NCBI GenBank assembly: GCA_041666645.1
Contig: JBAYGN010000001.1
Location: 31,625-95,624 of the forward strand
Length of the DNA stretch: 64,000 nt
Direction of reading: 5' to 3'
Origin: Minisyncoccota bacterium
GTDB lineage: Bacteria; Patescibacteriota; Minisyncoccia; Phycocordibacterales; UBA5272
In this document: positions 2,685-29,480 of the stretch, in pieces
Layout: each line of letters starts with the position of its first letter
How positions within the stretch are numbered: the stretch's first letter is position 1
Position numbers and translations under genes: made by a program
The notes under the pieces: generated by a model
Databases searched by the model: none
Told to the model about the DNA's origin: nothing
Seen by the model: the letters and a program-made list of their open reading frames with translations, nothing else

Positions 2685-3578
2685 TTATTTTTCTTTTATT
2701 TCTTTCTCTGCCTTTTCCAAATCAACACCATCTTTGGTGACATCTTTCCATAAATCCCCTTTTTCTTCTATACGTTTAAAAATATTTTTAATTGTGAATT
2801 GAATTGGTCTCAAGCCGTGTTTTACTTCGCTCCATTCTAATGGTGTAGACACAGACGCCAAAGGCACTGACCGCAAAGAATACGGTGCGATAACAGTCTG
2901 CCCAATTGCGTTTCGTGATATGTCGATATGAATTTTATTTTTACGTTTTTCTGGAAAATGTTCTAGACTTACAATCTCAGGAATCTTTTCATTTACTTTA
3001 TGTGCAATTAAATCTGCGAACTCCCTTACTTTTTCGTACGAATATTTTGCGCCAGTTGGCACATAAATATGTAGCCCGTACTTTCCAGAAGTTTTGCAAA
3101 AGTTAGGAACATTAATTTTCTCGAGAAGTTTATGTATCTCAAGTGCAGTTGTTACAACATCGTCAAAAGAAGCGTCCTCTCCTCTGTCGATATCAAGAAT
3201 CATAAACTCTGGCTTTTCTAGTGACCCAACCTTTGAACTCCACGGATGCATTTCTATGCAGCCAATGTTTGCAAGGTAAAGCAAGGTCTCTTCGTTGTTA
3301 CAAACAACGTAGTTAATATCTTTTTCAGTTGTTTTCGCGCGAATGGTTTTTGTCTCTACGAAATCAGGCACGCTTTTCGGCTCTACATTTTTTTGATAAA
3401 AATGAATTCCTTCTATTCCTTCTGGTGTACGATAAAGAGAGCTTGGATAATTTTTCAAATACTTCAAAATAATCGGTGAAATATTTTTGTAATAATCAAC
3501 AAGGTCTGCTTTTGTATAACCATCATCTGGCCAAAGAACTTTGTCTAAATGTGTGAATTCTTGAGTGGTTTTTTTCAT
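2685..3578 (-). CDS. stand-alone LigD polymerase/primase-domain protein (NHEJ polymerase)
   Basis: 297 aa. Archaeo-eukaryotic primase-like LigD PolDom motifs are present: MILDIDRGEDASFDDVV (DxD metal site), SGKYGLHIYVP, HIDISRNAIGQTVIAPYSLR. Its start overlaps the stop of the upstream ligase gene by 4 nt (3575-3578), suggesting translational coupling. Confidence 0.85.
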   Translation of the reverse strand: MKKTTQEFTHLDKVLWPDDGYTKADLVDYYKNISPIILKYLKNYPSSLYRTPEGIEGIHFYQKNVEPKSVPDFVETKTIRAKTTEKDINYVVCNNEETLLYLANIGCIEMHPWSSKVGSLEKPEFMILDIDRGEDASFDDVVTTALEIHKLLEKINVPNFCKTSGKYGLHIYVPTGAKYSYEKVREFADLIAHKVNEKIPEIVSLEHFPEKRKNKIHIDISRNAIGQTVIAPYSLRSVPLASVSTPLEWSEVKHGLRPIQFTIKNIFKRIEEKGDLWKDVTKDGVDLEKAEKEIKEK

Positions 3579-4507
3579 GAGATTTTTGGTTTTACTATTT
3601 CCATTATCACTTCTGTTGCTTTTTTATCCTCACGCAACCCCAAAAATGCGGGGTGTCGCAACTCACCGCCAAGAGTCCATTCAGTGAACTTCACCTCACA
3701 AACAACTTCTGGTTTTACCCATGTGGTTGTTGATTCAAATTTTACTTTTTCAGTGAACGGACTTTTTTCAGCTTTAATTTTTGATAACTTCGCGTGAATA
3801 CTTTTCAAGTCCTCTGCGTCAAAACCGGTTCCAACGTGACCCACATAATGCCAAACTTTCCCATCATGCACCGCAAGAGCAAGTGAGCCGAAATATTTAC
3901 GTGACAAGCGTGGCTCTGTAAATCCAACGATAACAAACTCCTGTCGCAAACCAGTCTTAATTTTTAACCAATCGCGAGAACGTTTACCAGATTGGTACGT
4001 GCTATCGGCTCGTTTTGCCATTATTCCTTCTTCGCCAGCTTTTTTGGCTTCTGTAAAATAACGTGACCCGTTAGTCGTGCGATGCTCACTAAATCTAATA
4101 ACTGTATCATCAGGAATTATTTTTTTGAGAGCTTCTTTTCTTTCAAGCAAAGTTAAATCGCACATGCTCTTGCCATCCAAGGACATTATGTCAAAAACAT
4201 AATAATAAAGATTTGTTTTCTTTCGTAGAGCGTTTTGTAAAAGCTGAAACCTAGAACGTCCTTTATTGTCCAATGCAACTAATTCACCGTCTATTACAGC
4301 GTCGTGTTTAATTTTTTCTAAAGCTTTTACAATATCAATATATCTATCACTAACAATTTCACCATTACGCGAGTACAGAGTAACTTTTCCTTTTGCAATG
4401 GAAGCTATCACACGAAACCCATCCCATTTAGTTTCAAACACCCAAGCCTTGTCATCAAACGGCTTATCAGTAAGAGTGGCGAGCATTGGTTGGATTATTT
4501 TAGACAT
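3575..4507 (-). CDS. ATP-dependent DNA ligase (LigD ligase-domain type, adenylation + OB fold)
   Basis: 310 aa. Motif I KxDG is present (ETKWDGFRV), along with DGELV, EGIMAKR and WLKIK motifs typical of ATP-dependent ligases. Confidence 0.85.
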   Translation of the reverse strand: MSKIIQPMLATLTDKPFDDKAWVFETKWDGFRVIASIAKGKVTLYSRNGEIVSDRYIDIVKALEKIKHDAVIDGELVALDNKGRSRFQLLQNALRKKTNLYYYVFDIMSLDGKSMCDLTLLERKEALKKIIPDDTVIRFSEHRTTNGSRYFTEAKKAGEEGIMAKRADSTYQSGKRSRDWLKIKTGLRQEFVIVGFTEPRLSRKYFGSLALAVHDGKVWHYVGHVGTGFDAEDLKSIHAKLSKIKAEKSPFTEKVKFESTTTWVKPEVVCEVKFTEWTLGGELRHPAFLGLREDKKATEVIMEIVKPKIS

Positions 4508-4567
4508 TTTTTGATATCTTATCTATAACGTTAATGTTAACACCGAGCTGTTAAGTCTCCTATTAAT

Positions 4568-5299
4568 TTATATTTCAATAATAGAATAAATAAGTAAATG
4601 GTCAGAGGCAGTCGATTTTACGGCTCTACTCGATGCTATTTTTATATCCTTGGTAACAAAAATATAATCTAGCTTATATTTTAGTCCAGAAGGCTTACAC
4701 ACGAGACAGCCTTTAGGGTTTGTGCTCCATGTTAATTGCGTTCCCTTAACATCAGTATCCAGCATGGTATTTTTCATAACTTGTATACTTTTCTGTTCTG
4801 GTGTTGCATTAAAATCTCCCACAACGACAGAGTTTTCTTTGGGAACAACTTTTAATAAACTTTTTACCTGAGTGTCTTGTATTTTAAATGGTTTTAAATG
4901 CGTATGAACAAAGTGAACCGAAAAAATATGAAGGTTTTTATCGTTGACTTTAATTACTGCTTCCACGGCAGTTCTTTTACGAGTTTCTGACAAAAGATGG
5001 ATTTTAGTGTCTATGATTTCATGTTTGCTTATTATTGCGTTTCCTAAACCCATAGTTTTATCGGCGTTACTATCTCTTGAAAATTCCGATATAGTCTCCA
5101 TCGGAAAATGTGATGTTTCATATACCCATTTGTATCCTAATTCCTCGGCTATCTTTTTTGTAACATTAATTCTGTCACTATCCCGAATAACTTCTTGGAG
5201 ACCAATTACATCAGCATCAATAACTTTTAGGCGTTTGATAATTTCTTTTAAGTTTTCCCCTCCCCAAATATTCCAAGATACAATTTTTAGTTGTGACAT
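4568..5299 (-). CDS. endonuclease/exonuclease/phosphatase (EEP) family protein
   Basis: 243 aa. N-terminal KIVSWNIWGG...GLQEV and C-terminal GDFN...SDHLLI motifs are characteristic of the EEP fold. Confidence 0.75.
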   Translation of the reverse strand: MSQLKIVSWNIWGGENLKEIIKRLKVIDADVIGLQEVIRDSDRINVTKKIAEELGYKWVYETSHFPMETISEFSRDSNADKTMGLGNAIISKHEIIDTKIHLLSETRKRTAVEAVIKVNDKNLHIFSVHFVHTHLKPFKIQDTQVKSLLKVVPKENSVVVGDFNATPEQKSIQVMKNTMLDTDVKGTQLTWSTNPKGCLVCKPSGLKYKLDYIFVTKDIKIASSRAVKSTASDHLLIYSIIEI

Positions 5300-5354: not shown

Positions 5355-5807
5355 GTGGGAATTGGTTGTATCTTCTGTTTTAAATATCTGGAAGGAATCA
5401 TTGTGAATTATCTTTTGATTTTTATTCTGTGTCTTGGTCTTGCTGTTATTGGGATTTATATCGCAAGGTTTTTTCCCAACAATAATACGAGGCGCCAAAT
5501 TGCGATAAGTGCATGTCAGAACGTTGCATTAAGCTTCTGTGGCACCTGGAATGCTACAGGTATCTCCATGCCTGGCTTACCCGGTGCTAAAAACTTTTAC
5601 GTTATATTGGAAGAAAGGGATCGCGTACTTTGGGGTTGGTCAAAAGAACCATACCCGAGAACACTTGTGCTTCTCTATCACAGAGAGTTGGCGCGTGGTG
5701 AAACTGTTCAAGTGGCGTTATTGTCGCAAGAAAATATTCCTGAACATCCGGACAGTTTGGCTGACCTTCTTTTCCCATACCCCACAGGGCGCAACATTGG
5801 GAAGTGA
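5355..5807 (+). CDS. hypothetical membrane-anchored protein (orphan)
   Basis: ORF with one N-terminal TM helix (NYLLIFILCLGLAVIGIYIA). A more likely start is GTG 5404, preceded by GGAAGGA. The C-terminal two thirds are visibly G+C-richer. Followed by a terminator at 5822-5862. Confidence 0.5.
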   Translation: MGIGCIFCFKYLEGIIVNYLLIFILCLGLAVIGIYIARFFPNNNTRRQIAISACQNVALSFCGTWNATGISMPGLPGAKNFYVILEERDRVLWGWSKEPYPRTLVLLYHRELARGETVQVALLSQENIPEHPDSLADLLFPYPTGRNIGK

Positions 5808-5821
5808 CTCCTTTATTTTAG

Positions 5822-5862
5822 AACACCATTTGCAATTTACTTGCAATGGTGTTTTTCTTTAT
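5822..5862 (+). terminator. intrinsic terminator after 5355..5807
   Basis: AACACCATTTGCAA / TTGCAATGGTGTT hairpin (one bulge) followed by TTTTCTTT. Confidence 0.6.
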
Positions 5863-5867
5863 TTGTT

Positions 5868-5935
5868 AGCTGATGAGGACTCGGTCACAAAACTACCTCG
5901 CTTTGATCTAAAACGAAGTTTGTACTATTCTGAGA
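5868..5935 (-). repeat. degenerate copy of the tRNA-linked junction unit (AGGACTCG|GTCACAAAAC...)
   Basis: Plus strand reads gctgatgAGGACTCGGTCACAAAACtacctcg...gaagtttgt. It has the same core-plus-hairpin-arm arrangement as 6174-6240 (ACAAACT/AGTTTTGT stem on the minus strand). Confidence 0.5.
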
Positions 5936-6132
5936 AAAATGTAGAATAGGACAATGTTCATTACGGGGAGATTGAAATGCGAACACGTTTCATAGTCATA
6001 ATGTTTGTGGGGATCATATCGTTGTTGTTTGTTGAGACTTTCATGCTCTTTTCGATTATCGACCCAACGCTCGATAAAAATGGCTTTTGTTTCAACATTC
6101 CAAACCAATCACGATTGTGCATTCGAAAATCC

Positions 6133-6158
6133 AAACCTCCTACGGGAGGTTTTTGTTT
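6133..6158. terminator. hairpin AAACCTCC-TACG-GGAGGTTT, possible bidirectional terminator
   Basis: Perfect 8-bp stem. T-run (TTTGTTTT) lies on the plus side. On the minus strand it lies ~15 nt 3' of the distal structured unit and is followed by GGATTTTCG. Confidence 0.45.
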
Positions 6159-6169
6159 TATGAAAATCA

Positions 6170-6337
6170 ATTTCTGGGGTACAGGGACTCGGTCACAAAA
6201 CTTCTCCTCGTAAACTCGTCGATAAAGTTTCGCGACCCCTATTCGAGTCCCTGCCGCAAGTGACGCAGGTCACTTGCTTTCCCCAGCAACACAAAGTGTA
6301 AGAACGCTTCGCGTACGATAAATGTGTGTTGCTGGGG
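6170..6337 (-). repeat. 168-nt direct repeat, distal copy (tRNA-Gln 3'-end copy + structured unit)
   Basis: Hand alignment to 12328..12495 gives 2 mismatches in 168 nt (6180 t/a, 6248 t/c). Contains CTGGGGTACAGGGACTCG (tRNA-Gln 3' 18 nt, 1 mismatch) and the hairpins described in the findings. Confidence 0.9.
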
Positions 6338-6486
6338 CTGTGGGACGAAGTTGGAACACTTTTAACTTTTAATTCTATTGAAAATTTAGGGAAACTAAGG
6401 CAGGTAATGTAATATCAAGTAAAAAAAGTGTTAGGATAATAATAAGTTGAAGGCTACTTTCTAGTTTTGCTAAAGATTATTTTATA

Positions 6487-8241
6487 TTACTTTTGCCATT
6501 TTTTAATTACCTCAGCAAATTTAGCTTCTTTCCACTCCTCTTTCCATTCTTCTAAATATTTAATGTCTCCTGATTTTGGTTTGTTTATACAAGCGTCTAT
6601 CTTTACAATTGAAGGCATAATTACGGAATCTCCAATCAATAAAGCTTCTCCTGCTTGTAAAATTGGTAAAGTTTCAGTGATAGAACCAAGGGTATCTGGT
6701 AGTAGGCGTTTTACATAATTTTGATCCTCAGGATTTGTTAATCTCATTGCGATAAAGTTACTACACTGCGAGAAAATAGTCTCGGATATTTCTGAAGGTC
6801 TTTGACTAACAATACATAGAGTTACTCCATACTTTCTTCCTTCTTTAGCAATACGTTCGATTGCTGTTCTTGAAGCTCTGTATTTTACTAGGTCACTTTT
6901 GGGTACATATTTGTGAGCTTCTTCATAAACAAGCAATAGAGGGGTTTCACTTTCAATTTCATCAGCAAGTATTTTTTTATAATAATAACCATATTCAAAC
7001 AACATTCTTGATATAAGTGATACTGTAATACTTAAAACTTCAAAAGGAATACCGGAAAGATCAATTATTGTTACATTAGATTTTTTTGTGGAATAACCAA
7101 GGAATTGTCTCAGTATTCCCTCAAGTGTTTCCGAAGAAACATCATCAAATAAAAATTTAAGACGGGGATTATTTCTTATTGTCTCTAGTCTTAAAATAAA
7201 TCTTTCGAAGTCACCATTAAAAGGCCCATTACTAGCTTTAGTTTCCTTGGCTGTGTTCGCAACACAAAAACTTACATCTTCTGAAAAGTAACTTTTCTTT
7301 CTATCTGTTATCAAGCTACCGTCTGATTTTTTCGGCATGCCTTCGCCTTCTAGTTTTCCTATAACTTCATTGTTTATATTTTTTATATATCTAATTACAT
7401 CATCTATCTTAAATTGAATAGGAGAATCAAAATAGATTTTACTTTCTGGAACCTGATCTTTTTTATCAAGAAGAGTATTTTGTATTTTTTTATTTTCTGT
7501 TACCGCATATCTAAATTGTGAGACTTGATTATGTGAATTTTCTTCATTACTTTCAATAAATAAATCTCCAAGTTCCTCACTATCAAATAACCAGTAAGGT
7601 ATTTTTATATTTCCTGAATTAATATAATTAGCATCAGGAAAAGCGTTTTTATACTCACCGTGGATATCAAAGATAACAATATGAGAGTTATTTAAACCTT
7701 GGTAGTCAGATTTTTTACCTTGTACAGCTTCTTGTAGCACCTTAGCAACAGTATGAGACTTTCCAGAACCAGTAGAACCGACTATGGCTATGTGTTTGTT
7801 AAAAAACTTATTACCGTCTACTGGAACATTTACTGTTTTATCTTGTGTTAATTTTGAAAAACAAAAACTAACATTTTCTTCTAGGTTATTGTATATTTTT
7901 TGTATGTCCTCTTTTGTCGCAGGTTCAGCAGATTTTGGTGGTATTGCTATATTATTTCCGCCTCTAATAAATTTATCAGTTGAATCAATAATACCTAAAG
8001 GAATTGCTTCAATCACATAAATCTTTTTTCTTTCGCCGTTTTCATCAGGCTCTTGTATTTCTATAGAAAAGTTTTCGATTATTGCTATAACTCTACAATT
8101 TTGATGATCAAATACTTTTAAATATGACCCAACAGCAAGGACCTCTCCTTCAACTTTGAATTTCTCAATATTATTTACCAATATCTTAATTTTATTTGGA
8201 AAAACTGAGACGACCTCAGCCATGTTTTTTTCATCAGTCAT
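6487..8241 (-). CDS. herA: HerA-like ATPase (HAS-barrel + FtsK/HerA P-loop, DUF87), partner of DUF4297
   Basis: 584 aa. N-terminal barrel region (VVSVFPNKIKILV...GSYLKVF), Walker A IVGSTGSGKSH, Walker B LLLVYEEAHKYV, CIVSQRPSEIS. Sits 3 nt downstream of the DUF4297 gene. Confidence 0.8.
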   Translation of the reverse strand: MTDEKNMAEVVSVFPNKIKILVNNIEKFKVEGEVLAVGSYLKVFDHQNCRVIAIIENFSIEIQEPDENGERKKIYVIEAIPLGIIDSTDKFIRGGNNIAIPPKSAEPATKEDIQKIYNNLEENVSFCFSKLTQDKTVNVPVDGNKFFNKHIAIVGSTGSGKSHTVAKVLQEAVQGKKSDYQGLNNSHIVIFDIHGEYKNAFPDANYINSGNIKIPYWLFDSEELGDLFIESNEENSHNQVSQFRYAVTENKKIQNTLLDKKDQVPESKIYFDSPIQFKIDDVIRYIKNINNEVIGKLEGEGMPKKSDGSLITDRKKSYFSEDVSFCVANTAKETKASNGPFNGDFERFILRLETIRNNPRLKFLFDDVSSETLEGILRQFLGYSTKKSNVTIIDLSGIPFEVLSITVSLISRMLFEYGYYYKKILADEIESETPLLLVYEEAHKYVPKSDLVKYRASRTAIERIAKEGRKYGVTLCIVSQRPSEISETIFSQCSNFIAMRLTNPEDQNYVKRLLPDTLGSITETLPILQAGEALLIGDSVIMPSIVKIDACINKPKSGDIKYLEEWKEEWKEAKFAEVIKKWQK

Positions 8242-8244
8242 AGA

Positions 8245-9393
8245 TTATGAAATTATTTTAATAATATCTTTAGTATGTTGTATGTAAAATTCTTTCAAGT
8301 CTTTTAAGTTCTCTTGAAGGTCAACTTTTGATAAAGTTGAAAACACATAAACTTCATCTAGTTTACCTTTTTTAAACAAAAATGGTAAAAACTCCTCTGA
8401 AATAATTTTAAATGCAACATTTGAAGAATCTTTGTATGTATCGACAATTAAATCTTGTATTCTAAACTTGTCTCCATTAAAATGTGTTCCATCACTAAAG
8501 TGCAATCCTTTATCTAAGAAACTTTGCTTTAGCAGGTTTAAACGAGTAGTGTCTATACCATATAAACAGATATAGGGTGAGGGTGATATATCTTTTCTAA
8601 AGTATTTATTTTTTATATTTGTAACTATTTCTAAAAGATTAGAATCCCTAATCGTGTCATCAATTTGAATGACTATCAATCTCTCTTTGCAAGGTATGTT
8701 AATCTTTTTAAATGTGAAGTATTCTTTTTTTAGATAACTTAAATATTTGTTGTTACTTAAAAACTTACAATAAGCCAATTCAAATATTACTTTTTCTTTT
8801 TTATTAACTAACGTTTTCAGTTTATTAAAGTTTATTAATCTTTGCTTCTTTTCTTTAATGATTGCTATGTCGAGTAAGTTAGATTTAAAAAGTGCATGAT
8901 AAACAGTAGCTTCCTCATCTGTTGTTAACTTGAATCCTGTTTTTATTTTTGAAATTAGATCTTTAAATTGTTGTTCAAAGTTATCAGAAAACTCTAGTAT
9001 AAAATGTTTTAAAAAATGCTCCTTATTTTTTAAGGTGTACTTATCTTTTTCAGTACCTAAAATTTTATCTAATTCTGAGATGTTTAGAAATTTTTTCTCA
9101 GGGGCTTTATCTTTAAAAAAAGCATATAACTTAAAAGTTTTCTTTTTATCTATGATGGACAGTTCTAGTAATTGTGTTAATGCTTTTTTGATACTTGAGG
9201 GGGTATACTTTTTAGATTCTTTATACTTAACTTGTATATAAAAATTACCTAGTCCAATATCTTGAATTTGTTCAATTTCTATATCTGAATGTGGGTTATT
9301 TAGTGCTTCTAAAATCGACTTATCAAATTGATAAGTAAAACCTTTTATTGCATAGTATCCACCATCATCTTGCTTTGATTTTGTTGTTCCCAT
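8245..9393 (-). CDS. DUF4297 (Cap4-like PD-(D/E)xK nuclease domain) protein of a DUF4297-HerA defence pair
   Basis: 382 aa. N-terminus reads GGYYAIKGFTYQFDKSILEAL...IEIEQIQDI...YIQVKYK. This matches the GFxYQ / E-x-QD / QVK signature of DUF4297 nucleases as I remember it. Gene order DUF4297 then HerA is the described arrangement. Confidence 0.7.
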   Translation of the reverse strand: MGTTKSKQDDGGYYAIKGFTYQFDKSILEALNNPHSDIEIEQIQDIGLGNFYIQVKYKESKKYTPSSIKKALTQLLELSIIDKKKTFKLYAFFKDKAPEKKFLNISELDKILGTEKDKYTLKNKEHFLKHFILEFSDNFEQQFKDLISKIKTGFKLTTDEEATVYHALFKSNLLDIAIIKEKKQRLINFNKLKTLVNKKEKVIFELAYCKFLSNNKYLSYLKKEYFTFKKINIPCKERLIVIQIDDTIRDSNLLEIVTNIKNKYFRKDISPSPYICLYGIDTTRLNLLKQSFLDKGLHFSDGTHFNGDKFRIQDLIVDTYKDSSNVAFKIISEEFLPFLFKKGKLDEVYVFSTLSKVDLQENLKDLKEFYIQHTKDIIKIIS

Positions 9394-9434
9394 TTTCTAG
9401 ATTCTACTCCTATTACAAGATAAATCTAGTCCTT

Positions 9435-9632
9435 TTATTTGTAACGCATTGGTCCTGATGTTGCATTTAAAGTATCTTCTAGGTTGGATGTGCTCTCTTC
9501 CTCTAATAAGATATTTTGGATCCGCTTTGGTTCACAAAACTTTTCTTTTATTTTATTAAAATTCGCAACTGTATAGCCAACTGCAAAAAACACAAAACAG
9601 AGAAGCACTATTTTTAGCTTTAGTGTATTCAT
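9435..9632 (-). CDS. small membrane/secreted hypothetical protein
   Basis: 65-aa ORF with one N-terminal hydrophobic helix (LKIVLLCFVFFAVGYTV), lying upstream of the DUF4297 gene. No obvious Shine-Dalgarno. Confidence 0.35.
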   Translation of the reverse strand: MNTLKLKIVLLCFVFFAVGYTVANFNKIKEKFCEPKRIQNILLEEESTSNLEDTLNATSGPMRYK

Positions 9633-9731
9633 GCGTAAGGTTCTTAAAAATTTGATAGCAAAACACCGCCATTGAAATAGGAGAACCTTACGAGTAGACC
9701 CACTCCATGGCGGAGCTTTAGTCGTAAGGTT
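9633..9731 (-). promoter_or_regulatory. leader with mutually exclusive hairpins (CGTAAGGTT x2 / AACCTTACG x1; CCGCCAT/ATGGCGG)
   Basis: Plus-strand copies: CGTAAGGTT at 9634-9642 and 9723-9731, with its complement AACCTTACG at 9684-9692; CCGCCAT at 9666-9672 and ATGGCGG at 9707-9713. One alternative pairs the 9 nt immediately 5' of the start codon (start codon at 9630-9632, minus strand). Confidence 0.35.
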
Positions 9732-9771
9732 TTTAAATTATGTTTTGTAGTCACATTGTATCAGTTATAAA

Positions 9772-10263
9772 TCAAAAGAGAGACCTAAGAATTCGGTCAC
9801 AAAACCATTTGTAACAATCTACAATTTCACCCGCTTTTTCTAGTCGTAAGAAATCTTCGCGAGTCTGTAATTCTTTGTAGTGCTGTGTAACTTTTGCACC
9901 GAGATGAAGCACTGCGTGCAAATGCGCCCCTGTCGTAGCCGAACCAGTGTTTCCAGAATGTGCGATTATATCCCCCTCTTTATATATTCCTTTTGTTGGT
10001 AATTCTTTTAGATGACATAGTTCAAGTCCCCAAGTTGTTCCTTCGTAATCAAATATAAAAACGCCGACGTTTCCTTTATATTTATTTACTTCAGTTTTGA
10101 ACATCTCACCATCACAAGGTGCAAATATTGGTGTACCGACAGCAACCTTAAAATCTGTTCCGACGTGTGTGCCTGTTTTTGGATAATTTTTACGGTCTGG
10201 AAAAGCACCGAATGGGTTGGTGGAGTTGTAGGATTGTTTGAAGTTGAGGAGGGGGAGGTGCAT
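9772..10263 (-). CDS. M23/LytM-family metallopeptidase domain protein (no signal peptide)
   Basis: 163 aa. HxxxD motif (GTHVGTDF) and HxH motif (GAHLHAVLH). The last ~8 codons run into the junction-motif remnant GAATTCGGTCACAAAAC (9789-9805). Confidence 0.7.
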   Translation of the reverse strand: MHLPLLNFKQSYNSTNPFGAFPDRKNYPKTGTHVGTDFKVAVGTPIFAPCDGEMFKTEVNKYKGNVGVFIFDYEGTTWGLELCHLKELPTKGIYKEGDIIAHSGNTGSATTGAHLHAVLHLGAKVTQHYKELQTREDFLRLEKAGEIVDCYKWFCDRILRSLF

Positions 10264-10272
10264 AATATAAAT

Positions 10273-12168
10273 TTATATATAATCTCTTATATCCACGTCA
10301 ATATTTTGCCCCTGAGCCCTTTTAGTAAGAGATATCCATATAGAGTTTCCACCAGACCCTCTTTTATCAACGTTAAAAAATTGTTTTTCAGATTTTTTAA
10401 TAGAAATTTTAATTACAGATACAACTTGATTATCATTTCTTAAAATAACTGGCTCAAATTCTATAAGACTATTAAACTTATCTTGTGTGCAATCTGTTAT
10501 TTGTTTAAGATTATCAAGTATTTGCAATCGAACAGTATCAAGTGTTTTATTTTGTATTCTAAATTCTTGCCCTATATCAAAAAAAGTTAAACCGTTTTTA
10601 ACAATAAGTAAATTTTTTATTTCTTCTCTTTTAATAGCCTCTGGGTTTTCTACTATTCCAACAATTAAAGTTCCCCCTTCCGTGTTAAGCATAGCCAAAA
10701 TAACCTTTAATATTTTTTCAAATATCTTTTTTTTAATTGAAGAATCAGTTTCTTCATCACGATATTCTTGTTCTAATGGAGTATAAAAACTTGATTTCCA
10801 TTCAATCTTTTCATTTTCTTGTATTACAAAATCTTTAATTTTATCCCAATCATCTTCAATATAATATTTATTTAAAATCTCATGAACATCAACAATCCAT
10901 TGATTTAATTCATGAACGATAACATTTAAAGACCATCTTGTATCCTTAGCATTATTAATTTCTTCGAGAACAGAAAAAGTTTTTATTGAAATTAAAAAAA
11001 TTTTATTAGTCCATTCATTATCAGTTTCAGTGATTTCTTTATTATTAAAAGCTGAAAAATTTTTATGTGAATATTCAGATAATTCTTTCTTAATTTCAGT
11101 TGCCAGTTTTGCTTTTTCTGAAACAATTTCAAAAAAATTTTTACCGTCTTGATAGTTAAAGCCAGAGCATATTTTTTTAAAGAAAAAAATTAAATTTCTT
11201 TCATTTTTTTGTATAAAAATATCAAAAAAACTTGTTATATCTTTTGAGGTATTTCTGTAGTAATGTTCAATACTTTCATTAAGATCATTAGATGTTACGT
11301 AAATTAAATCAAGAGATTTTGATAAATTAAATGACTCCCCTTTATTCTCATTAATTATTTTTTTAAAACTGTTTTCAATTACTGGTCTTATAATTAAAGA
11401 TAAAAAAGTTATACCAGCTAAAGACCTACTTGTTTTTAGGTTTAAAAATAAAAAATTATCATCTAGTTTAACTGGGAATTTTGAGTCATAATTTTGATTA
11501 AAATGAAATCTTACATCCCAAGCCACCTTTTCAAGAAAAAAACAAAGTTTTATAAAATTATTTTCATGTGCTGGTAGGTGTTTTAAAATATTTCTTAGAA
11601 TATCTGTAGTATTTTTTCTTAGAAATTCTATACTATTTTTAGTAATTGATTTATAGTCTATCGCAATACCAAAGAAAGCAAGCATCACTGCGGTATTTAA
11701 AAAAATTAATTTATCAAAATTGGATTCTTCTTTTTGCAAAATGCTTATTTTTTGATTTTTACTTATTAGTTCTATTAATATTTTTATAAAATTTTCATTA
11801 CGAAGAGTCGCGTTAAAAACAAGAACATATACATTTGTTTTAGAATATAATTCATGTGTGAAGTCTTCATCTAAACCATCAAAAATAGAAGAAAGAATAC
11901 ATGTGCAATCAAAAAAATCTTTACTTGTTTTTGCTTGTTCTATTTTTTTTATTAAATCTGTAATAGCTCCAGCTGTAGATTTTTTAATAAAATGTTTATA
12001 GTGATCTTCATTTTTCAAATCAGCATACATTTCATCAAAAGAAGACCATTTTTTATTAAGATTGCTCATAAAGATAAGGTATTTAAAAAGTATATCTTTA
12101 TTTAACCAATACAACAATTTTTGAAATACTAAATTAAAACCCTTACACAACAAGAGGTTTTTTAGCAT
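10273..12168 (-). CDS. hypothetical protein with C-terminal AlbA_2/Schlafen-like domain
   Basis: 631-aa ORF; the real start may be Met35 at 12066. The C-terminal ~170 aa begin EKIEWKSSFY...KILKVILAMLNTEGGTLIVGIVE, which resembles the E-x-K ... N-T-x-GG-x-L-x-x-G signature of AlbA_2 domains. The N-terminal ~440 aa are helical with no motif I recognise. Confidence 0.5.
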   Translation of the reverse strand: MLKNLLLCKGFNLVFQKLLYWLNKDILFKYLIFMSNLNKKWSSFDEMYADLKNEDHYKHFIKKSTAGAITDLIKKIEQAKTSKDFFDCTCILSSIFDGLDEDFTHELYSKTNVYVLVFNATLRNENFIKILIELISKNQKISILQKEESNFDKLIFLNTAVMLAFFGIAIDYKSITKNSIEFLRKNTTDILRNILKHLPAHENNFIKLCFFLEKVAWDVRFHFNQNYDSKFPVKLDDNFLFLNLKTSRSLAGITFLSLIIRPVIENSFKKIINENKGESFNLSKSLDLIYVTSNDLNESIEHYYRNTSKDITSFFDIFIQKNERNLIFFFKKICSGFNYQDGKNFFEIVSEKAKLATEIKKELSEYSHKNFSAFNNKEITETDNEWTNKIFLISIKTFSVLEEINNAKDTRWSLNVIVHELNQWIVDVHEILNKYYIEDDWDKIKDFVIQENEKIEWKSSFYTPLEQEYRDEETDSSIKKKIFEKILKVILAMLNTEGGTLIVGIVENPEAIKREEIKNLLIVKNGLTFFDIGQEFRIQNKTLDTVRLQILDNLKQITDCTQDKFNSLIEFEPVILRNDNQVVSVIKISIKKSEKQFFNVDKRGSGGNSIWISLTKRAQGQNIDVDIRDYI

Positions 12169-12202
12169 TTTCGCAAAATATATTAACGAAGCTCATTATT
12201 TT

Positions 12203-12290
12203 GCTGGGAGATAGGGATTCGGTCACAAAATCAACTCCTTCGTCGCAGATGATTTTCCGACCCGTATTCGAGTCCCGACGTACGACACGC
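12203..12290 (-). repeat. diverged copy of the tRNA-linked hairpin unit with variant acceptor strand
   Basis: Minus strand reads GGGACTCG-AATACGG-GTCGGAAAATCA-TCTGCGACGAAGGAGT-TGATTTTGTGACC-GAATCCC-TA-TCTCCCAGC. It has the same layout as the 168-nt unit (T-like stem, capped hairpin, CGACGA..GGAG loop). Confidence 0.6.
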
Positions 12291-12297
12291 AGACCAT

Positions 12298-12317
12298 GTG
12301 GGACTCGGTCACCAAAC
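12298..12317 (-). repeat. junction fragment GGGACTCG|GTCACCAAAC
   Basis: Short copy of the core/junction motif lying between the two fuller units. Confidence 0.5.
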
Positions 12318-12327
12318 ATATACTTTT

Positions 12328-12495
12328 ATTTCTGGGGAACAGGGACTCGGTCACAAAACTTCTCCTCGTAAACTCGTCGATAAAGTTTCGCGACCCCTAT
12401 TCGAGCCCCTGCCGCAAGTGACGCAGGTCACTTGCTTTCCCCAGCAACACAAAGTGTAAGAACGCTTCGCGTACGATAAATGTGTGTTGCTGGGG
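12328..12495 (-). repeat. 168-nt direct repeat, tRNA-proximal copy (structured tRNA-like unit)
   Basis: See 6170..6337. The right end (12490-12495) overlaps the 3' end of tRNA-Gln. The left end (12332-12349) is an exact second copy of the tRNA's 3' 18 nt, CTGGGGAACAGGGACTCG. Confidence 0.9.
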
Positions 12496-12560
12496 AACAG
12501 GGACTCGAACCCCAATACCATCCTCCAGAGGGATGTGTCCTACCATTAGACGATTCCCCA
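12490..12560 (-). tRNA. tRNA-Gln (anticodon CTG)
   Basis: Minus strand: TGGGGAA TC GTCT AATGGTA GGAC A CATCC CTCTGGA GGATG GTAT TGGGG TTCGAGT CCCTG TTCCCCA G. Cloverleaf with 7-bp acceptor stem. CCA is not encoded. Confidence 0.85.
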
Positions 12561-17785: not shown

Positions 17786-17842
17786 ATGAACCCCTCCTGT
17801 TATTTCAGATTAACTAAAATTATCTTTTCTGTCTAGGGTTAA

Positions 17843-17988
17843 AGTTATATGCAGAATCGGTCACAACTTCTCCTTACTTATTTTTTGAGCCAAAAGCAAC
17901 CTTCGCGAGCTCTCCTCCACAAGGAAACTATCGTTTCCCTGACACCCTTCAAAACCTTCTGTCTCAAAAAGCTTCGCTTATTTTTTTG
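17843..17988 (-). repeat. degenerate second unit of the tRNA-Thr-linked array
   Basis: Ends (minus sense) with GGAGAAGTTGTGACC-GATTCTGC (plus 17851-17875). Contains GAGACAGAAGG, a GAA-looped hairpin remnant and TTGGCTCAAAAAATAAG remnants of the proximal unit. Confidence 0.55.
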
Positions 17989-18153
17989 AGCCAGAAGGCA
18001 GAATCGGTCACGAAACTTCTCCTCGCATGCTCGTCGATAAAGTTTCGCTACCCCGTATTCGATTCTGTAAGACGTGAAGCAGTTCACGTCTACCTAAATT
18101 TGATAAAACAAATTTAGGCCTTCTGGCTCAAAAAAGCTTCGCTTATTTTTTTG
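17989..18153 (-). repeat. structured tRNA-like unit downstream of tRNA-Thr(CGT)
   Basis: Minus strand: GCCAGAA-GG-CCTAAATTTG(TTTTATC)AAATTTAGG-T-AGACGTGAA(CTGC)TTCACGTCT-TA-CAGAATCG-AATACGG-GGTAGCGAAACTT-TATCGACGAGCATGCGAGGAG-AAGTTTCGTGACC-GATTCTG-CC-TTCTGGC-T. A ~45-nt direct repeat (17962-18006 vs 18127-18171) includes the tRNA 3' end. Confidence 0.8.
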
Positions 18154-25214: not shown

Positions 25215-27063
<1,849 letters not shown>

Positions 27064-27111
27064 TTAAAAGCAAAATAATGAGCTTAGTTTTCTGAGCGCA
27101 TTATTTTGCTT

Positions 27112-27960
27112 TTACGAAGACATTGCTATAGTTCCACTTGTTATTTCTGCAATTTCTTGTGTAACCTGCCCTTGACGAGCGCGGTTAAAATAAAGTTTCA
27201 AGTCATCCTGAAGTTCTTTCGCGTTGTCTGTTGCGCTTTTCATGGCGAACATTCGAGCAGAATGTTCGCTCGCATAACTTTCAAGCACTGCTCCATAAAT
27301 AATATTGTGAATCATCATCGGGATAATTCTTGATAACACTGTTTCTTGGTCTGGCTCATAAGCATATTTAGGTTCACCGTGTGTACTTGGTTCGCCGTCT
27401 GAAGAAAATGGTAGAAGTTGAAGTATTGTTGGAGTAAAAACACTTCCAGACGTAAAGTGTGTGTATAGAATACGCACCGTTCCAATTTTCTTCTCTTTAT
27501 ACCAATTAACAATCATTGTAGCTGTAGCGTGCGCATCTTCAGAAGTTAATACTGGATGATTAAATGATGCCAGAGTTTCTGCGTGAAGTTTCTTGGCAAC
27601 TTTCTCAGAGTATTTTCCAAAAGCAACTACTTTCAAATTTTTCCTTTCATTTTCATCGTAAGCTTCCAATAGTTTACGGTATATGTTTACGTTATAACTA
27701 CCACATAAACCTTTGTTTGAAGCAACAATAATAAGAACTTCACTACTTACACCGTTGTGTAACAATAATTCATGGCGAATTATTGGGTCAAGGGAAATAT
27801 CCTTAAGTACATTTTGTGCTTCCTCATGAAATGGGCGGAGGGTATGGGCATTTTCAATAGCCTTTTTCATTTTTGCAGCAGAAACCATCTCCATGGTTTT
27901 GGTGATTTTTTTTATACTACCGACACTTTTAATTTTTTCTTTAATAACTTTTGTTTGCAT
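27112..27960 (-). CDS. atpG: F1 ATP synthase subunit gamma
   Basis: 282 aa. N-terminus IKSVGSIKKITKTMEMVSAAK and C-terminus ITQEIAEI fit gamma. Confidence 0.9.
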   Translation of the reverse strand: MQTKVIKEKIKSVGSIKKITKTMEMVSAAKMKKAIENAHTLRPFHEEAQNVLKDISLDPIIRHELLLHNGVSSEVLIIVASNKGLCGSYNVNIYRKLLEAYDENERKNLKVVAFGKYSEKVAKKLHAETLASFNHPVLTSEDAHATATMIVNWYKEKKIGTVRILYTHFTSGSVFTPTILQLLPFSSDGEPSTHGEPKYAYEPDQETVLSRIIPMMIHNIIYGAVLESYASEHSARMFAMKSATDNAKELQDDLKLYFNRARQGQVTQEIAEITSGTIAMSS

Positions 27961-27977
27961 ATAGCTTTACCCAATTT

Positions 27978-29480
27978 TTATGCGCTGTTACCGTGCTGAT
28001 GAACAAACGACTCAAGAGCACCTTTCAACTCATTTTCTATTTCATCGTTCCAATCTTTTTCAATGGATGTAAGTAAGTCTTTGTGTGACGTAAGCATGAA
28101 TACATGCATATCCTTTTCCCAAGCAGAAACATCAGACGCTGGAATTCCATCAACGAACCCGTTGTTCACAGAATAAACAGACATAACTTGAAGAGCTGTG
28201 CGAAGAGGGTTACCGTTTGTTTGTTTTAACATTTCCTGTGTACGCTTTCCCCTTTCTATTGTCCGTTTTGTATCAATATCTAAATCACTATCAAATTGTG
28301 CGAAAGATTCAAGTTCACGATATTGAGCCATAGCAAGCTTCATTTTACCTGCGTTCTTTTTCATAGCCTTTGATTGTGCTGATGAGCCTACACGTGACAC
28401 AGAAAGCCCAACATCAATAGCTGGTCTCATACCCTTATAAAAAAGGTTTGCGTCTAGGAAGATTTGTCCGTCTGTAATAGAAATAACGTTGGTTGGAATA
28501 TAAGCCGATACGTCACCCGCTTGAGTTTCAATAATTGGAAGGGCTGTAATAGAACCACCACCAGCATTTTCATTTCTACGGCACGCACGCTCAAGCAATC
28601 GTGAGTGAAGATAAAAAACATCACCAGGGTAAGCCTCGCGTCCTGGTGGGCGCTTAAGAAGAAGAGACATCTCACGGTAAGCAACAGCATGCTTTGAAAG
28701 ATCATCGTACACAACAAGAACATCTTTCTTTTTATTCATGAAATATTCTGCGATGGCAGTACCAGAGTATGGCGCTAAATATGAAAGCGTGGCTGATTTT
28801 GAAGCGCCAGCAAGAACCACTACGGTGTATTCCATGGCACCAGAAGTTCTAAGTTTTTCTACGATTTGTGCAATTTTTGATTCCTTTTGACCAATAGCAA
28901 CGTATATGCAAATAACCCCAGAACCTTTTTGGTTTATAATTGTATCAACAGCGATTGTTGTTTTTCCTGTTTGGCGGTCACCGATTATAAGCTCACGCTG
29001 TCCACGTCCAACTGGAATCATCGCATCAATTGCCTTCACACCTGTTTGCATAGGAACGTTAACTGGTTCACGATCCATAACGCCTGGTGCAATTTTTTCT
29101 ACAAGCTCTACGTTGTTTAATCCTGTTAACTTTTCACCGTCAAGAGAGTTCATTAGCGGGTCAACGACACGACCAAGTAGCGCTTCACCAACTGGAATAG
29201 ATAACACACGTCCAGTGCGTGTTACCTCCTCACCTTCACGTACCATATCACCACCAGACACTATAACAATACCCACCATATCAGACTCTAAGTTAAGCGC
29301 GATACCCTTAGCACCTGAAGCAAATGTTACTTCTTCCATACTCGCACAAGAAAGTAGTCCTGTAACACGCGCGATGCCATCACTTACAGAAACAACATTA
29401 CCAACCTCGTTTACTGAGACAGTGGTTGATATATCTGCAATTTTATTTTCTAGCTCTTTGATTATTTTTTCTACTGACAT
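27978..29480 (-). CDS. atpA: F1 ATP synthase subunit alpha
   Basis: GDRQTGKT Walker A, VYDDLSKHA, PGREAYPGDVFYLHSRLLER. Confidence 0.95.
   Translation of the reverse strand: MSVEKIIKELENKIADISTTVSVNEVGNVVSVSDGIARVTGLLSCASMEEVTFASGAKGIALNLESDMVGIVIVSGGDMVREGEEVTRTGRVLSIPVGEALLGRVVDPLMNSLDGEKLTGLNNVELVEKIAPGVMDREPVNVPMQTGVKAIDAMIPVGRGQRELIIGDRQTGKTTIAVDTIINQKGSGVICIYVAIGQKESKIAQIVEKLRTSGAMEYTVVVLAGASKSATLSYLAPYSGTAIAEYFMNKKKDVLVVYDDLSKHAVAYREMSLLLKRPPGREAYPGDVFYLHSRLLERACRRNENAGGGSITALPIIETQAGDVSAYIPTNVISITDGQIFLDANLFYKGMRPAIDVGLSVSRVGSSAQSKAMKKNAGKMKLAMAQYRELESFAQFDSDLDIDTKRTIERGKRTQEMLKQTNGNPLRTALQVMSVYSVNNGFVDGIPASDVSAWEKDMHVFMLTSHKDLLTSIEKDWNDEIENELKGALESFVHQHGNSA

What the first reader, a model, noticed from the sequence alone, without database searches (positions are those of the whole stretch)
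6170..12495. Roughly 6-kb AT-rich defence island bracketed by 168-nt near-identical direct repeats at tRNA-Gln, with no recombinase
The repeats 6170-6337 and 12328-12495 differ at 2 of 168 positions. The proximal one abuts and overlaps tRNA-Gln.

The interior is clearly AT-richer than the core genes. My hand counts give about 27% G+C in a 60-nt herA sample, against about 35% in a 120-nt atpD sample. The cargo is DUF4297-HerA, an AlbA_2-domain protein, an M23 peptidase and a small TM protein.

No integrase, transposase, relaxase or replication gene is visible between the repeats or anywhere else in the 64 kb.

The distal repeat is followed by CTGGGGCTGTGGGACGAAGTTGG, which looks like a decayed tRNA 3' end.

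This resembles accretion of cis-mobilisable, integrase-less elements (CIME-like). However, the repeats are unusually long and structured.
Basis: partly seen in the sequence, partly recalled or inferred. Interest (0 to 1): 0.7.

Follow-up and report, generated by a model that had tools for sequence, protein, structure and literature searches.

The report
Defence island between tRNA-linked structured repeats
A 5.9-kb phage-defence gene cassette with no recombinase of its own sits in a pile-up of insertions behind a glutamine tRNA gene of a candidate-phyla-radiation (CPR, ultra-small) bacterium, and the long repeats around it are two copies of an uncatalogued folded repeat that trails many tRNA genes in this lineage.

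Summary
tRNA-Gln(CTG) lies at 12489-12560 on the minus strand. The interior is AT-rich and carries DUF4297-HerA, an AlbA_2-like protein and an M23 peptidase. No recombinase was found in the 64 kb.

The repeats were probably not made by the insertion. They belong to a large family of structured units that follow at least 18 tRNA species in Patescibacteria. Each unit carries a complement and an up-to-18-nt copy of its own tRNA's 3' end around a conserved core. Covariation is strong, one G.U pair is invariant, and the fold is strand-specific. No Rfam family matches. The closest known analogue is the E. coli tRNA-linked repeats.

The "decayed tRNA end" beside the distal copy is a conserved 26-nt element-end motif. 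It recurs in at least 9 other genomes, once on a recombinase-bearing element. Its GTTC lies 5 nt further from the junction than in the tRNA, the attP-versus-attB geometry of serine integrases.

Best reading: a recombinase-less cassette in a tRNA-Gln accretion array, inserted by a trans-acting site-specific recombinase, probably a large serine recombinase. The island's left boundary and the unit's function remain unresolved.

The parts
12489..12560 (-). tRNA-Gln(CTG). Its 3' end plus the following spacer forms the attB-like junction (...TTCCCCAG|CAACACAC...).
   Evidence: ARAGORN; Rfam tRNA 54.5 bits; promoter-like site at 12632-12604
12328..12488 (-). Unit A1, the proximal repeat copy. It comprises a spacer hairpin (about 12446-12488) and a structured core that ends in an 18/18 copy of the tRNA 3' end (CGAGTCCCTGTTCCCCAG, 12332-12349).
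   Evidence: covariance model R1 99.9 bits (this sequence was in the seed)
12203..12327 (-). Decayed array members. There is the 3' half of a second unit, which is 33 nt 100% identical to a unit in L016/L104. There is also 5'-truncated unit B, which ends in a variant tRNA-end copy CGAATCCCTATCTCCCAG (12204-12221).
   Evidence: R1 55.1 bits, E=3e-11 at 12203-12317 (not in the seed)
12169..12203 (-). Zone that holds the island's left (tRNA-proximal) boundary. The candidate attL is ...TCTCCCAG|CAAAATAATGAGC at 12204|12203. The exact junction is not resolved.
   Evidence: sequence; the same CAAAATAATGA start follows an element-end motif in L016; inference
10273..12168 (-). 631-aa protein with a weak AlbA_2/Schlafen-like C-terminal region.
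   Evidence: Pfam PF04326 24.2 bits, below the cut-off; no PADLOC or NCBIfam family
9772..10263 (-). M23 peptidoglycan metallopeptidase (163 aa).
   Evidence: Pfam PF01551 41.8 bits; NCBIfam MepM-like domain hits
9435..9632 (-). 65-aa ORF with no family match. It is called as a gene in public assemblies.
8245..9393 (-). DUF4297 nuclease-like partner of HerA.
   Evidence: PADLOC PDLC02187 E=1.4e-36; NCBIfam DUF4297_antiphage 148 bits
6487..8241 (-). Anti-phage HerA ATPase.
   Evidence: PADLOC PDLC02188 E=1.7e-242; NCBIfam HerA_antiphage_2 814 bits
6332..6357 (-). Conserved element-end motif GTTCCAACTTCGTCCCACAGCCCCAG, a putative attP-left half-site. This is the junction attR = motif|spacer of A2.
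   Evidence: +5-nt geometry compared with PMC3783163
6170..6331 (-). Unit A2, the distal repeat copy. It comprises a spacer hairpin and a structured core that ends in a 17/18 copy of the tRNA 3' end.
   Evidence: R1 102.2 bits (this sequence was in the seed)
5862..6169 (.). Older accreted segment. It holds a small plus-strand ORF with a terminator-like hairpin (6133-6152), then a unit scar ...GAGGTAGTTTTGTGACCGAGTCC (5862-5899, minus strand) preceded by a degenerate end-motif-like GTACAAACTTCGT.
17988..18152 (-). Same-family unit behind tRNA-Thr(CGT). Its stems match tRNA-Thr instead of tRNA-Gln. This shows that the repeat is a tRNA-linked family and not an island-specific att site.
   Evidence: R1 83.8 bits

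Best explanation
The region behind tRNA-Gln (12488 down to about 5860) is an accretion zone.

(1) Shown: the 168-177-nt repeats are two copies (A1, A2) of a tRNA-linked structured unit that is common behind tRNA genes in this Patescibacteria lineage. Read on the tRNA strand, each unit is:
- a spacer hairpin;
- the complement of the tRNA acceptor 3' strand;
- a 9-bp hairpin with loop CUGC;
- the complement of the T-stem/T-loop;
- GAAUAG;
- a long arm with conserved G.U pairs;
- a copy of the tRNA 3' end.

Because a unit ends in that copy, it re-creates the "tRNA end | spacer" junction.

(2) Shown for the distal end, inferred for the rest: the roughly 5.9-kb AT-rich DUF4297-HerA island is a cassette inserted by site-specific recombination at such a junction inside the array. 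Its tRNA-distal end carries the family's conserved 26-nt end motif. The junction tRNA|A1 remains an unoccupied attB.

(3) Inferred: the recombinase acts in trans. It is most likely a large serine recombinase of the kind that abuts tRNA 3' ends in related genomes. The island is a non-autonomous (satellite or stranded) cassette, comparable to ccr-less pseudo-SCC elements or CIMEs.

(4) Inferred: the 177-nt direct repeats could additionally allow RecA-dependent loss or transfer of the island.

The unit itself is most likely transcribed with the tRNA as a tRNA-like trailer RNA. Its function is unknown.
For: **The unit is a family, not an island att site**
- A same-family unit matched to tRNA-Thr lies in the window.
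- 45 tRNA-adjacent units cover 18 tRNA species. Their complement and copy segments match the cognate tRNA far better than non-cognate controls. The acceptor complement is perfect in 17/45 against 1% of controls. The copy averages 10.4 nt against 2.2 nt.
- 71/71 units fold better on the tRNA-sense strand.
- 96% of cells are paired, against 76% in shuffles and about 37% in slid controls. 18/26 pairs show compensatory changes. One G.U pair is invariant in 69/69 sequences.
- No Rfam family matches.
- The units are patchy among relatives and can occur in tandem without cargo, as in L034.

**The island is foreign**
- It has low G+C.
- HerA and DUF4297 are absent from 37 related Pif1/tRNA-Gln loci.
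- The closest HerA is only 74% identical, and homologues are spread across archaea and bacteria.
- A 99.97%-identical strain has a different junction at the tRNA.

**The end motif**
- GTTCCAACnTCrTCC...CCCCAG recurs at the tRNA-distal end of inserted segments in L012 (twice), L033, L093 and L128, and in more diverged form in L090, L009, L024 and L025.
- GTTC lies 26 nt from the junction, against 21 nt in the tRNA, in the window, L012, L033 and L095.
- This matches the 5-bp shift of the zinc-ribbon-domain motif between serine-integrase attP and attB (PMC3783163).

**Recombinases in relatives**
- L095 has the arrangement tRNA-Gln | serine recombinase + RCR Rep + 2 genes | end motif | spacer+unit.
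- L033 and L082 have serine recombinase genes that overlap tRNA 3' ends.
- L012 and L024 show arrays of recombinase-less one-gene cassettes, each ending in the motif, between tRNA-Gln and an ancestral flank. That flank follows the tRNA directly in L022.

**The array pre-existed**
- The fragment after A1 is 33/33 identical to part of a chromosomal unit in L016/L104.
Against: - No empty-site allele of this exact strain was found, so the left boundary and the pre-insertion sequence are inferred.
- The only recombinase-bearing element with the window-type motif (L033) also encodes a tyrosine integrase and an HTH_17 excisionase-like protein. The enzyme is therefore not settled.
- A1 and A2 are about 99% identical while neighbouring array members (unit 2, unit B) are only about 70-75% similar. 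This fits a recent duplication or a Campbell-type event better than an old array, unless gene conversion keeps the two copies alike.
- No recombinase is known anywhere for this genome. Only 64 kb of a 182-kb contig was seen.
- Neither the units nor the end motif were found in IMG/VR contigs, so no free attP form is documented.
- The sequences used for covariation were selected with a pattern that fixes part of the long arm.
Confidence: 0.55

Rival explanations
1. Classical long-att island. The element's attP shared about 170 nt with the "tRNA end + unit" region. Integration at tRNA-Gln produced the two repeats as attL and attR, and an integrase in trans can excise it repeat-to-repeat.
For: - The repeats are direct, near-identical, and start exactly at the last 6 nt of the tRNA.
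- Long identity blocks at tRNA att sites are known for some phages (own knowledge).
- L012 can equally be parsed as cassettes of the form [spacer+unit+cargo+end motif].
Against: - The same unit family follows many other tRNAs without cargo.
- Recombinase-bearing elements in L095 and L033 have no unit at their tRNA-proximal end.
- Between A1 and the cargo lie decayed units, one of them identical to a chromosomal unit of another species.
- With identical right arms, tRNA|A1 is an intact attB rather than an attL (inference from serine-integrase site logic).
Confidence: 0.13
2. Homologous-recombination cassette. A circular or linear DNA carrying one unit copy plus the cargo entered by RecA-dependent Campbell-type crossover within the resident unit, for example after transformation. 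Loss occurs by recombination between the 177-nt repeats. No site-specific recombinase is involved in this copy's history.
For: - A1 and A2 are about 99% identical while other array members are much more diverged.
- 177 nt is ample for RecA (own knowledge).
- No recombinase is present.
- In another sample the two copies share the G variant, which suggests conversion between copies.
- The island assembles as a 6299-nt loop with a 141-nt overlap. This is compatible with circles but is equally expected from the repeats alone.
Against: - This model does not explain the conserved 26-nt end motif sitting exactly at the junction with A2, nor its recurrence in other genomes.
- It needs an earlier site-specific event anyway.
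- No deletion (empty) allele was recovered.
Confidence: 0.18
3. The geometry is the same as in the best explanation, but the trans-acting enzyme is a tRNA-targeting tyrosine integrase. The crossover lies in the shared ...CCCCAGC... core, and the end motif is an attP core/arm site.
For: - L033, the only recombinase-bearing element with the window-type motif, encodes a Phage_integrase protein (51.5 bits) and an HTH_17 excisionase-like protein.
- tRNA 3' ends are the classic targets of tyrosine integrases (own knowledge).
- The L001 variant alters the tRNA from the variable loop onwards, as an integrase with an upstream crossover would.
Against: - L095 has the same +5 geometry with only a serine recombinase.
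- Serine recombinase ORFs overlap tRNA 3' ends in L033, L095 and L082.
- No homologue of the L033 tyrosine integrase occurs in any other fetched locus.
Confidence: 0.2
4. The units are the active part. They are portable, target-matched integration modules acting as a folded RNA or single-stranded DNA, analogous to CTX-phage attP hairpins, integron attC sites or guide RNAs. They direct cargo to the cognate tRNA end, and the island moves because it is attached to one.
For: - The structure is strand-specific with conserved G.U (G.T) pairs.
- The stems are re-specified for each tRNA.
- Hybrid units have mismatched 5' and 3' specificities in L009 and L016.
- Loop variants are shared between different tRNA loci of one genome.
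- The units are patchy in their presence.
- A rolling-circle Rep in the L095 element implies single-stranded DNA intermediates.
Against: - No associated enzyme was found.
- Recombinase-bearing elements lack their own unit.
- No units occur on viral contigs.
- Precise loss of units through their direct repeats can explain the patchiness.
- Everything here is inference from sequence.
Confidence: 0.12
5. Assembly duplication artefact, or a vertically conserved gene block.
For: Short-read assemblies break at the repeats.
Against: - Two independent contigs span the whole structure with copy-specific SNPs.
- The island genes are absent from 37 related loci.
Confidence: 0.02

Closest known systems
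tRNA-linked repeats (TLRs) of Escherichia coli (Egan & Landy 1978; Rudd 1999; reviewed in PMC8144298)
   Same: - They sit immediately downstream of tRNA or rRNA genes in the same orientation.
- There are one to several copies per locus.
- The last 18-19 nt are identical to the 3' end of the upstream gene.
- Function is largely unknown. Some are processed into small RNAs.
   Different: - There is no sequence or Rfam relationship.
- The units here share a conserved, covarying core at more than 18 tRNA species.
- They also carry the complement of the tRNA end.
- They occur in Patescibacteria.
- They are interleaved with inserted cassettes.
SCC composite islands and ccr-less pseudo-SCC elements at rlmH in staphylococci (own knowledge)
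   Same: - Large-serine-recombinase-type insertion occurs at the 3' end of a conserved gene.
- Elements accrete in tandem.
- Members without recombinase genes are bounded by recombination-site repeats and are thought to be mobilised in trans.
   Different: - The target here is a tRNA 3' end.
- The cassettes can be single genes.
- The recombinase assignment is inferred, not shown.
- The long flanking repeats are resident structured units, not 20-30-nt integration-site sequences.
CIMEs (cis-mobilisable elements) and tandem accretion in streptococcal ICEs (own knowledge)
   Same: They are integrase-less islands bounded by att-type sites at a tRNA or gene 3' end, generated and moved with the help of related autonomous elements.
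   Different: CIMEs use tyrosine-integrase att sites and derive from ICEs. Here no conjugation module is involved, and the site geometry fits serine integrases.
Integron cassette arrays / CALINs (own knowledge)
   Same: Arrays of promoter-less one-gene cassettes, each ending in a conserved recombination motif, are anchored at one site (L024, L012). Folded single-strand structures lie next to the cassettes.
   Different: - There is no IntI.
- The 26-nt end motif is not an attC palindrome.
- The anchor is a tRNA gene.
- The window's cassette has five genes.
DUF4297-HerA anti-phage system (PMC11291478, PMC12198126)
   Same: It is an adjacent two-gene DUF4297 + HerA operon with strong PADLOC and NCBIfam matches.
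   Different: Nothing unusual was detected. The NCBIfam scores are just below the equivalog cut-offs, consistent with a divergent CPR copy.

Membership tests
tRNA-linked repeat (TLR-like unit) | Lies directly downstream of a tRNA gene, on the same strand | tested here: met
   A1 starts at the base after tRNA-Gln. 45 units lie mostly 80-96 nt (tRNA end to the GAAU motif) behind 18 tRNA species.
tRNA-linked repeat (TLR-like unit) | 3'-terminal ~18 nt identical to the 3' end of the upstream tRNA | tested here: met
   A1 matches 18/18 and A2 17/18. 13 of 45 units have copies of at least 17 nt; the others have 7-13 nt.
tRNA-linked repeat (TLR-like unit) | Homology to E. coli TLR / rtT RNA | tested here: not met
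   No Rfam hit even at E<=10. It is an analogue, not a member.
Structured RNA family (new, model R1) | Conserved secondary structure supported by covariation and strand asymmetry | tested here: met
   Caveat: the seed was chosen by a sequence pattern, and transcription was not tested.
Serine-recombinase-mobilised cassette (pseudo-SCC-like) | attP-type half-site at one end, with the outer motif 5 bp further from the crossover than in attB | tested here: met
   GTTC lies 26 nt from the junction against 21 nt in the tRNA, in the window, L012, L033 and L095. The rule is taken from PMC3783163.
Serine-recombinase-mobilised cassette (pseudo-SCC-like) | A cognate large serine recombinase on related autonomous elements at the same site | tested here: inconclusive
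   L095 (serine recombinase only, different motif sequence), L033 (window-type motif but also a tyrosine integrase) and L082 (tRNA-Leu).
Serine-recombinase-mobilised cassette (pseudo-SCC-like) | A defined attL with only a short shared core with attR | tested here: inconclusive
   The candidate ...CCCAG|CAAAATAATG at 12204|12203 shares CCCAGCAA with attR. No empty site is available to confirm it.
Serine-recombinase-mobilised cassette (pseudo-SCC-like) | Excision or integration by the recombinase | not testable with these tools
   The 6299-nt loop contig with a 141-nt overlap cannot distinguish a circle from a repeat-bounded copy.
CIME (cis-mobilisable element) | Lacks recombination and transfer genes but keeps both att sites of a parent element | tested here: inconclusive
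   No recombinase is present. An attR-type end is present. attL is only inferred.
CIME (cis-mobilisable element) | att sites of a tyrosine-integrase ICE/IME | tested here: inconclusive
   The geometry favours serine integrases, but L033 carries a tyrosine integrase.
Integron cassette | IntI integrase and attC palindromes with R/L boxes | tested here: not met
   No tyrosine recombinase occurs in the window. Neither the end motif nor the unit has the attC core sequences (inspection).
DUF4297-HerA defence system | Adjacent DUF4297 and HerA genes matching the system's HMMs | tested here: met
   PADLOC PDLC02187 and PDLC02188; NCBIfam NF042945 and NF042944.

The most novel reading that the evidence does not exclude
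Patescibacteria may possess an integron-like gene-capture system built on tRNA genes.

In this reading, single- and multi-gene cassettes, each ending in a conserved 26-nt attP-type motif, accrete behind tRNA-Gln and probably other tRNAs through a serine recombinase acting in trans.

The tRNA-matched structured units would not be passive scars. They would be a new class of RNA or single-stranded DNA element that regenerates the tRNA-end landing site, or otherwise takes part in integration, so that cassettes can stack without damaging the tRNA.

The window's defence island would be one such cassette.
Probability: 0.25. Interest if true: 0.8.

Novelty: new variant of a known kind. Interest (0 to 1): 0.6.

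Why it matters
Mobile elements and defence-gene traffic in CPR bacteria are poorly known. Three things follow from this locus.

1. It gives a concrete, testable att-site model. The elements are a 26-nt end motif, the tRNA-end|spacer junction, and the +5 geometry. The model explains how recombinase-less defence cassettes are placed behind tRNA genes in these tiny genomes.

2. It reveals an abundant, covarying, tRNA-matched structured repeat that is absent from Rfam. This may be the CPR counterpart of the still unexplained E. coli tRNA-linked repeats. A conserved fold and an invariant G.U pair make a function experimentally approachable.

3. For annotation, long repeats of this family should not be read as island att sites or as assembly errors. 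They also explain why short-read MAG contigs break at tRNA genes.

Tried and rejected
- **Rfam.** Gathering and E<=10 searches on the window and 8 relatives returned only tRNAs.
- **IMG/VR scans.** Two unit patterns and the end motif were scanned. The results were 0, 1 chance hit inside a coding region (L049) and 0.
- **Circular-contig signal.** L044 is 6299 nt, which equals the 6158-nt spacing plus k = 141. It is a graph loop expected from the repeats, so it is not evidence of a circle.
- **"Hybrid" unit at the start of L004.** I first read this as an A1xA2 recombinant. L044 shows that both copies carry that base in that sample, so I dropped the reading.
- **Empty-site search.** Exact-protein look-ups of both flanks and of island proteins returned only contigs that break at the units.
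- **Recombinase remnants.** tblastn with serine and tyrosine recombinases found none in the window.
- **Dyad symmetry.** I tried to fix attL by looking for dyad symmetry of the right half-sites. The result was not convincing and is not used.
- **Ideas set aside for lack of the required enzyme or motif.** These were retron ncRNA, IS110 bridge RNA, IS200/IS605 ends, integron attC, a PBS-like tRNA primer site and an intrinsic terminator.
- **Contexts of HerA homologues.** L130 and L131 show other mobile contexts (serine recombinases, transposases) but no units.

Full report
**1. Check of the observation**

The two copies are real. They lie at 6170-6346 and 12328-12504, are 177 nt long and are 97% identical.

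tRNA-Gln(CTG) is at 12489-12560 on the minus strand. The 12.3-kb copy is therefore the tRNA-proximal one and begins with the last bases of the tRNA.

G+C is 23-32% in most 1-kb windows of the interior and 35-40% in the flanks.

The cargo consists of the following genes:
- DUF4297 (8245-9393);
- HerA (6487-8241);
- an M23 peptidase (9772-10263);
- a 631-aa protein with a sub-threshold AlbA_2 match (10273-12168);
- a 65-aa ORF.

No recombinase or transposase was found among the window's larger ORFs. The ATP-synthase block at 25630-29480 was not scanned. tblastn with recombinases from related loci also found nothing.

An independent JGI contig spans the whole arrangement with the same copy-specific differences. 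It is therefore not an assembly duplication.

**2. What the repeat is**

Read on the tRNA strand, each copy consists of:
- a spacer hairpin;
- CUGGGGAA, the complement of the tRNA acceptor 3' strand;
- a 9-bp hairpin with loop CUGC;
- CAGGGGCUCGAA, the complement of the T-stem and T-loop;
- an unpaired GAAUAG;
- a long arm GGGGUCGCGAAAC...GUUUUGUGACC;
- an 18-nt copy of the tRNA 3' end.

It folds far better than shuffled sequence (z = -7.5 alone and -8.1 with the tRNA).

The same architecture, with the tRNA-matched stems re-specified for tRNA-Thr(CGT), follows that tRNA at 17988-18152 in this window.

The organism is a Patescibacteria (CPR) bacterium of the Paceibacteria/Nomurabacteria kind. 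This follows from 37 related genome loci found with the neighbouring Pif1 helicase. In those genomes units follow tRNA-Gln, tRNA-Thr(CGT) and tRNA-Thr(GGT) in a patchy way, sometimes in tandem.

It found nothing in IMG/VR.

The evidence that the units form a structured, tRNA-matched family is as follows.
- The units lie about 85-95 nt behind at least 18 tRNA species. Their complement and copy segments match the cognate tRNA and not others.
- All 71 distinct units fold more stably on the tRNA-sense strand than on the opposite strand (mean -49.7 against -39.7 kcal/mol).
- On a 69-sequence alignment, 96% of cells are paired, against 76% after shuffling and about 37% when partners are slid.
- 18 of 26 pairs show compensatory changes, and one G.U pair is invariant.
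- A covariance model built from this alignment scores A2 at 102 bits, A1 at 100 bits and the Thr unit at 84 bits. It also finds the decayed composite at 12203-12317 (55 bits) and many units in related genomes. It finds none in more distant CPR loci.
- No Rfam family matches.

The closest described thing is the E. coli "tRNA-linked repeats". Their last 18-19 nt equal the 3' end of the upstream tRNA or rRNA gene, and their function is still largely unknown (PMC8144298).

No terminator-like site separates tRNA-Gln from A1, and a promoter-like site precedes the tRNA. Co-transcription is therefore plausible but untested.

**3. What bounds the island**

The 168 nt next to it are about 99% conserved.

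The motif GTTCCAACnTCrTCC...CCCCAG recurs in other genomes. It is always at the tRNA-distal end of an inserted segment and is followed by a spacer-like sequence or the ancestral flank. Clear copies occur in L012 (twice), L033, L093 and L128; more diverged copies occur in L090, L009, L024 and L025.

In the window, L012, L033 and L095, the GTTC of the motif lies 26 nt from the junction. The GTTC of the tRNA T-loop lies 21 nt from it. A 5-bp outward shift of the zinc-ribbon-domain motif is what distinguishes serine-integrase attP half-sites from attB half-sites (PMC3783163).

Related loci show the following.
- **L095** has the same geometry as the window but with the enzyme present. Its order is tRNA-Gln(TTG), a 504-aa large serine recombinase whose 3' end overlaps the tRNA, a rolling-circle Rep, two PG-binding proteins, an end motif, then spacer plus unit.
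- **L033 and L082** also have serine recombinase genes overlapping tRNA 3' ends.
- **L012 and L024** show arrays of small recombinase-less cassettes, each ending in the motif, behind tRNA-Gln. L012 has a DUF3800 gene and a 146-aa ORF. L024 has three one-gene cassettes of 0.47-0.72 kb with differing G+C.
- In L012 the array ends at a flank that follows the tRNA directly in L022 and follows a single unit in L007.

Caveat: L033, the only recombinase-bearing element with the window-type motif, also encodes a tyrosine integrase and an excisionase-like protein. The serine assignment is favoured but not proven.

**4. Reading of the window**

On the minus strand the order is:
- tRNA-Gln | A1 (an intact attB-like junction);
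- the 3' half of a second unit, joined to A1 at a GAAAT microhomology and 33/33 identical to a chromosomal unit of L016/L104;
- a 5'-truncated unit B ending in CGAATCCCTATCTCCCAG;
- CAAAATAATGAGC..., followed by the five cargo genes;
- the end motif | spacer + A2;
- a short older segment with a unit scar at 5862-5899;
- core genes: an EEP nuclease, and LigD ligase and primase-polymerase.

The simplest history is that an array of units existed behind the tRNA, and a cassette of about 5.9 kb inserted at an internal "tRNA-end copy | spacer" junction. On this reading A1 and A2 are array members that happen to flank it.

Their near-identity, compared with about 70-75% similarity for units 2 and B, is the main tension. 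It would be explained by gene conversion. In sample ERZ27249449 both copies share a variant, which points that way. Alternatively, a Campbell-type homologous event produced the arrangement, which I keep as a rival.

The island genes are absent from all 37 related loci. The nearest HerA is 74% identical, and homologues are scattered across domains. A 99.97%-identical strain carries a different junction at the tRNA. The region is therefore a live hotspot.

**5. What is shown and what is inferred**

Shown:
- the repeats, the gene content and the lack of a recombinase;
- the family nature, tRNA matching, covariation and strand bias of the unit;
- the recurrence and position of the end motif;
- recombinase-bearing and recombinase-less insertions at the same site in relatives.

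Inferred:
- the exact left boundary (12204|12203 is a candidate);
- the identity of the recombinase;
- mobilisation in trans;
- transcription and function of the unit.

The 6299-nt loop contig does not discriminate between a circle and a chromosomal copy.

**6. Comparison and verdict**

The island is an ordinary kind of thing: a recombinase-less defence cassette at a tRNA hotspot, like a CIME or a pseudo-SCC element.

What is less ordinary is the setting:
- a conserved, tRNA-matched structured repeat family not present in Rfam;
- an att geometry that points to serine recombinases;
- integron-like stacks of small cassettes behind tRNA-Gln in CPR genomes.

I rate it a new variant of known kinds, of moderate to good interest. 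The unit's function is the main open question.

Noticed in passing
window 17841-18152 (minus strand): tRNA-Thr(CGT) is followed by a full unit of the same family, with stems matched to tRNA-Thr (R1 83.8 bits). A further weak partial unit lies at 17841-17954 (14.9 bits). The spacer contains the GCGAAGC mini-hairpin motif that recurs in many spacers.
   Followed up: partly
L001:11740-12191 (sample ERZ27249449; corresponds to window 12494 onwards): A 99.97%-identical strain has a different sequence from within the tRNA-Gln 3' half. There are two substitutions in the variable and T-loop region, and the acceptor strand reads TTCCGGA, which would mispair. This is followed by unrelated DNA with a partial ORF. 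It is possibly another element with a crossover further upstream. The tRNA would be damaged.
   Followed up: partly
L024:4379-6138: Three consecutive one-gene cassettes (470, 568 and 722 nt) lie directly behind tRNA-Gln, each ending in a GTTCnAACTTC... motif and CAG|CT. Two are GC-rich and one encodes a Peptidase_S51. The arrangement looks like an integron-style array. Short further repeats of the motif tail follow at 6139-6260.
   Followed up: partly
L012:18700-20992 (minus strand): The order is tRNA-Gln | unit | DUF3800 gene + end motif | spacer + unit | 146-aa gene + end motif | ancestral flank CCAAATTGAG. The same flank follows the tRNA directly in L022 and follows a single unit in L007. 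This gives filled and empty states for both units and cassettes.
   Followed up: partly
L095:8700-14801: A 5.8-kb element sits at tRNA-Gln(TTG). It carries a large serine recombinase, a REP_ORF2-G2P rolling-circle initiator and two PG_binding_1 proteins. It is possibly a small integrative ssDNA plasmid or an inovirus-like element of a CPR host.
   Followed up: partly
L009:17087-17400 and L016:13150-14170: These are hybrid units. Their 5' stems match tRNA-Gln but their 3' tRNA-end copy matches another tRNA, or the reverse. This suggests recombination between units inside the conserved core.
   Followed up: no
window 2685-5299 (minus strand); L003:11722-12632: Separate LigD ligase (310 aa) and LigD primase-polymerase (297 aa) genes lie next to an EEP-family nuclease, an NHEJ-like set in a CPR genome. 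In the JGI strain (L003) the primase-polymerase gene is split into 147-aa and 125-aa ORFs.
   Followed up: no
window 5355-5807 (plus strand): A 150-aa ORF with an N-terminal hydrophobic segment sits in a locally GC-richer stretch (about 41%) between the unit scar and the core genes. It has no family match and is called as a gene in public assemblies. It may be part of an older insertion.
   Followed up: no
L130:1530-15542: The closest longer-context homologue of the DUF4297-HerA pair (71% and 49% identity) lies in a phage-like region with two large serine recombinases, a terminase and several methyltransferases.
   Followed up: no
metagenome loci L057, L081, L082, L092, L096, L119 (contig Ga0265297_10000016, 775 kb; same length as JBAZJW010000001, from which L009 comes): One near-complete CPR genome holds at least six units that match the stringent pattern, next to different tRNAs. 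The family is therefore multi-copy within a genome.
   Followed up: partly
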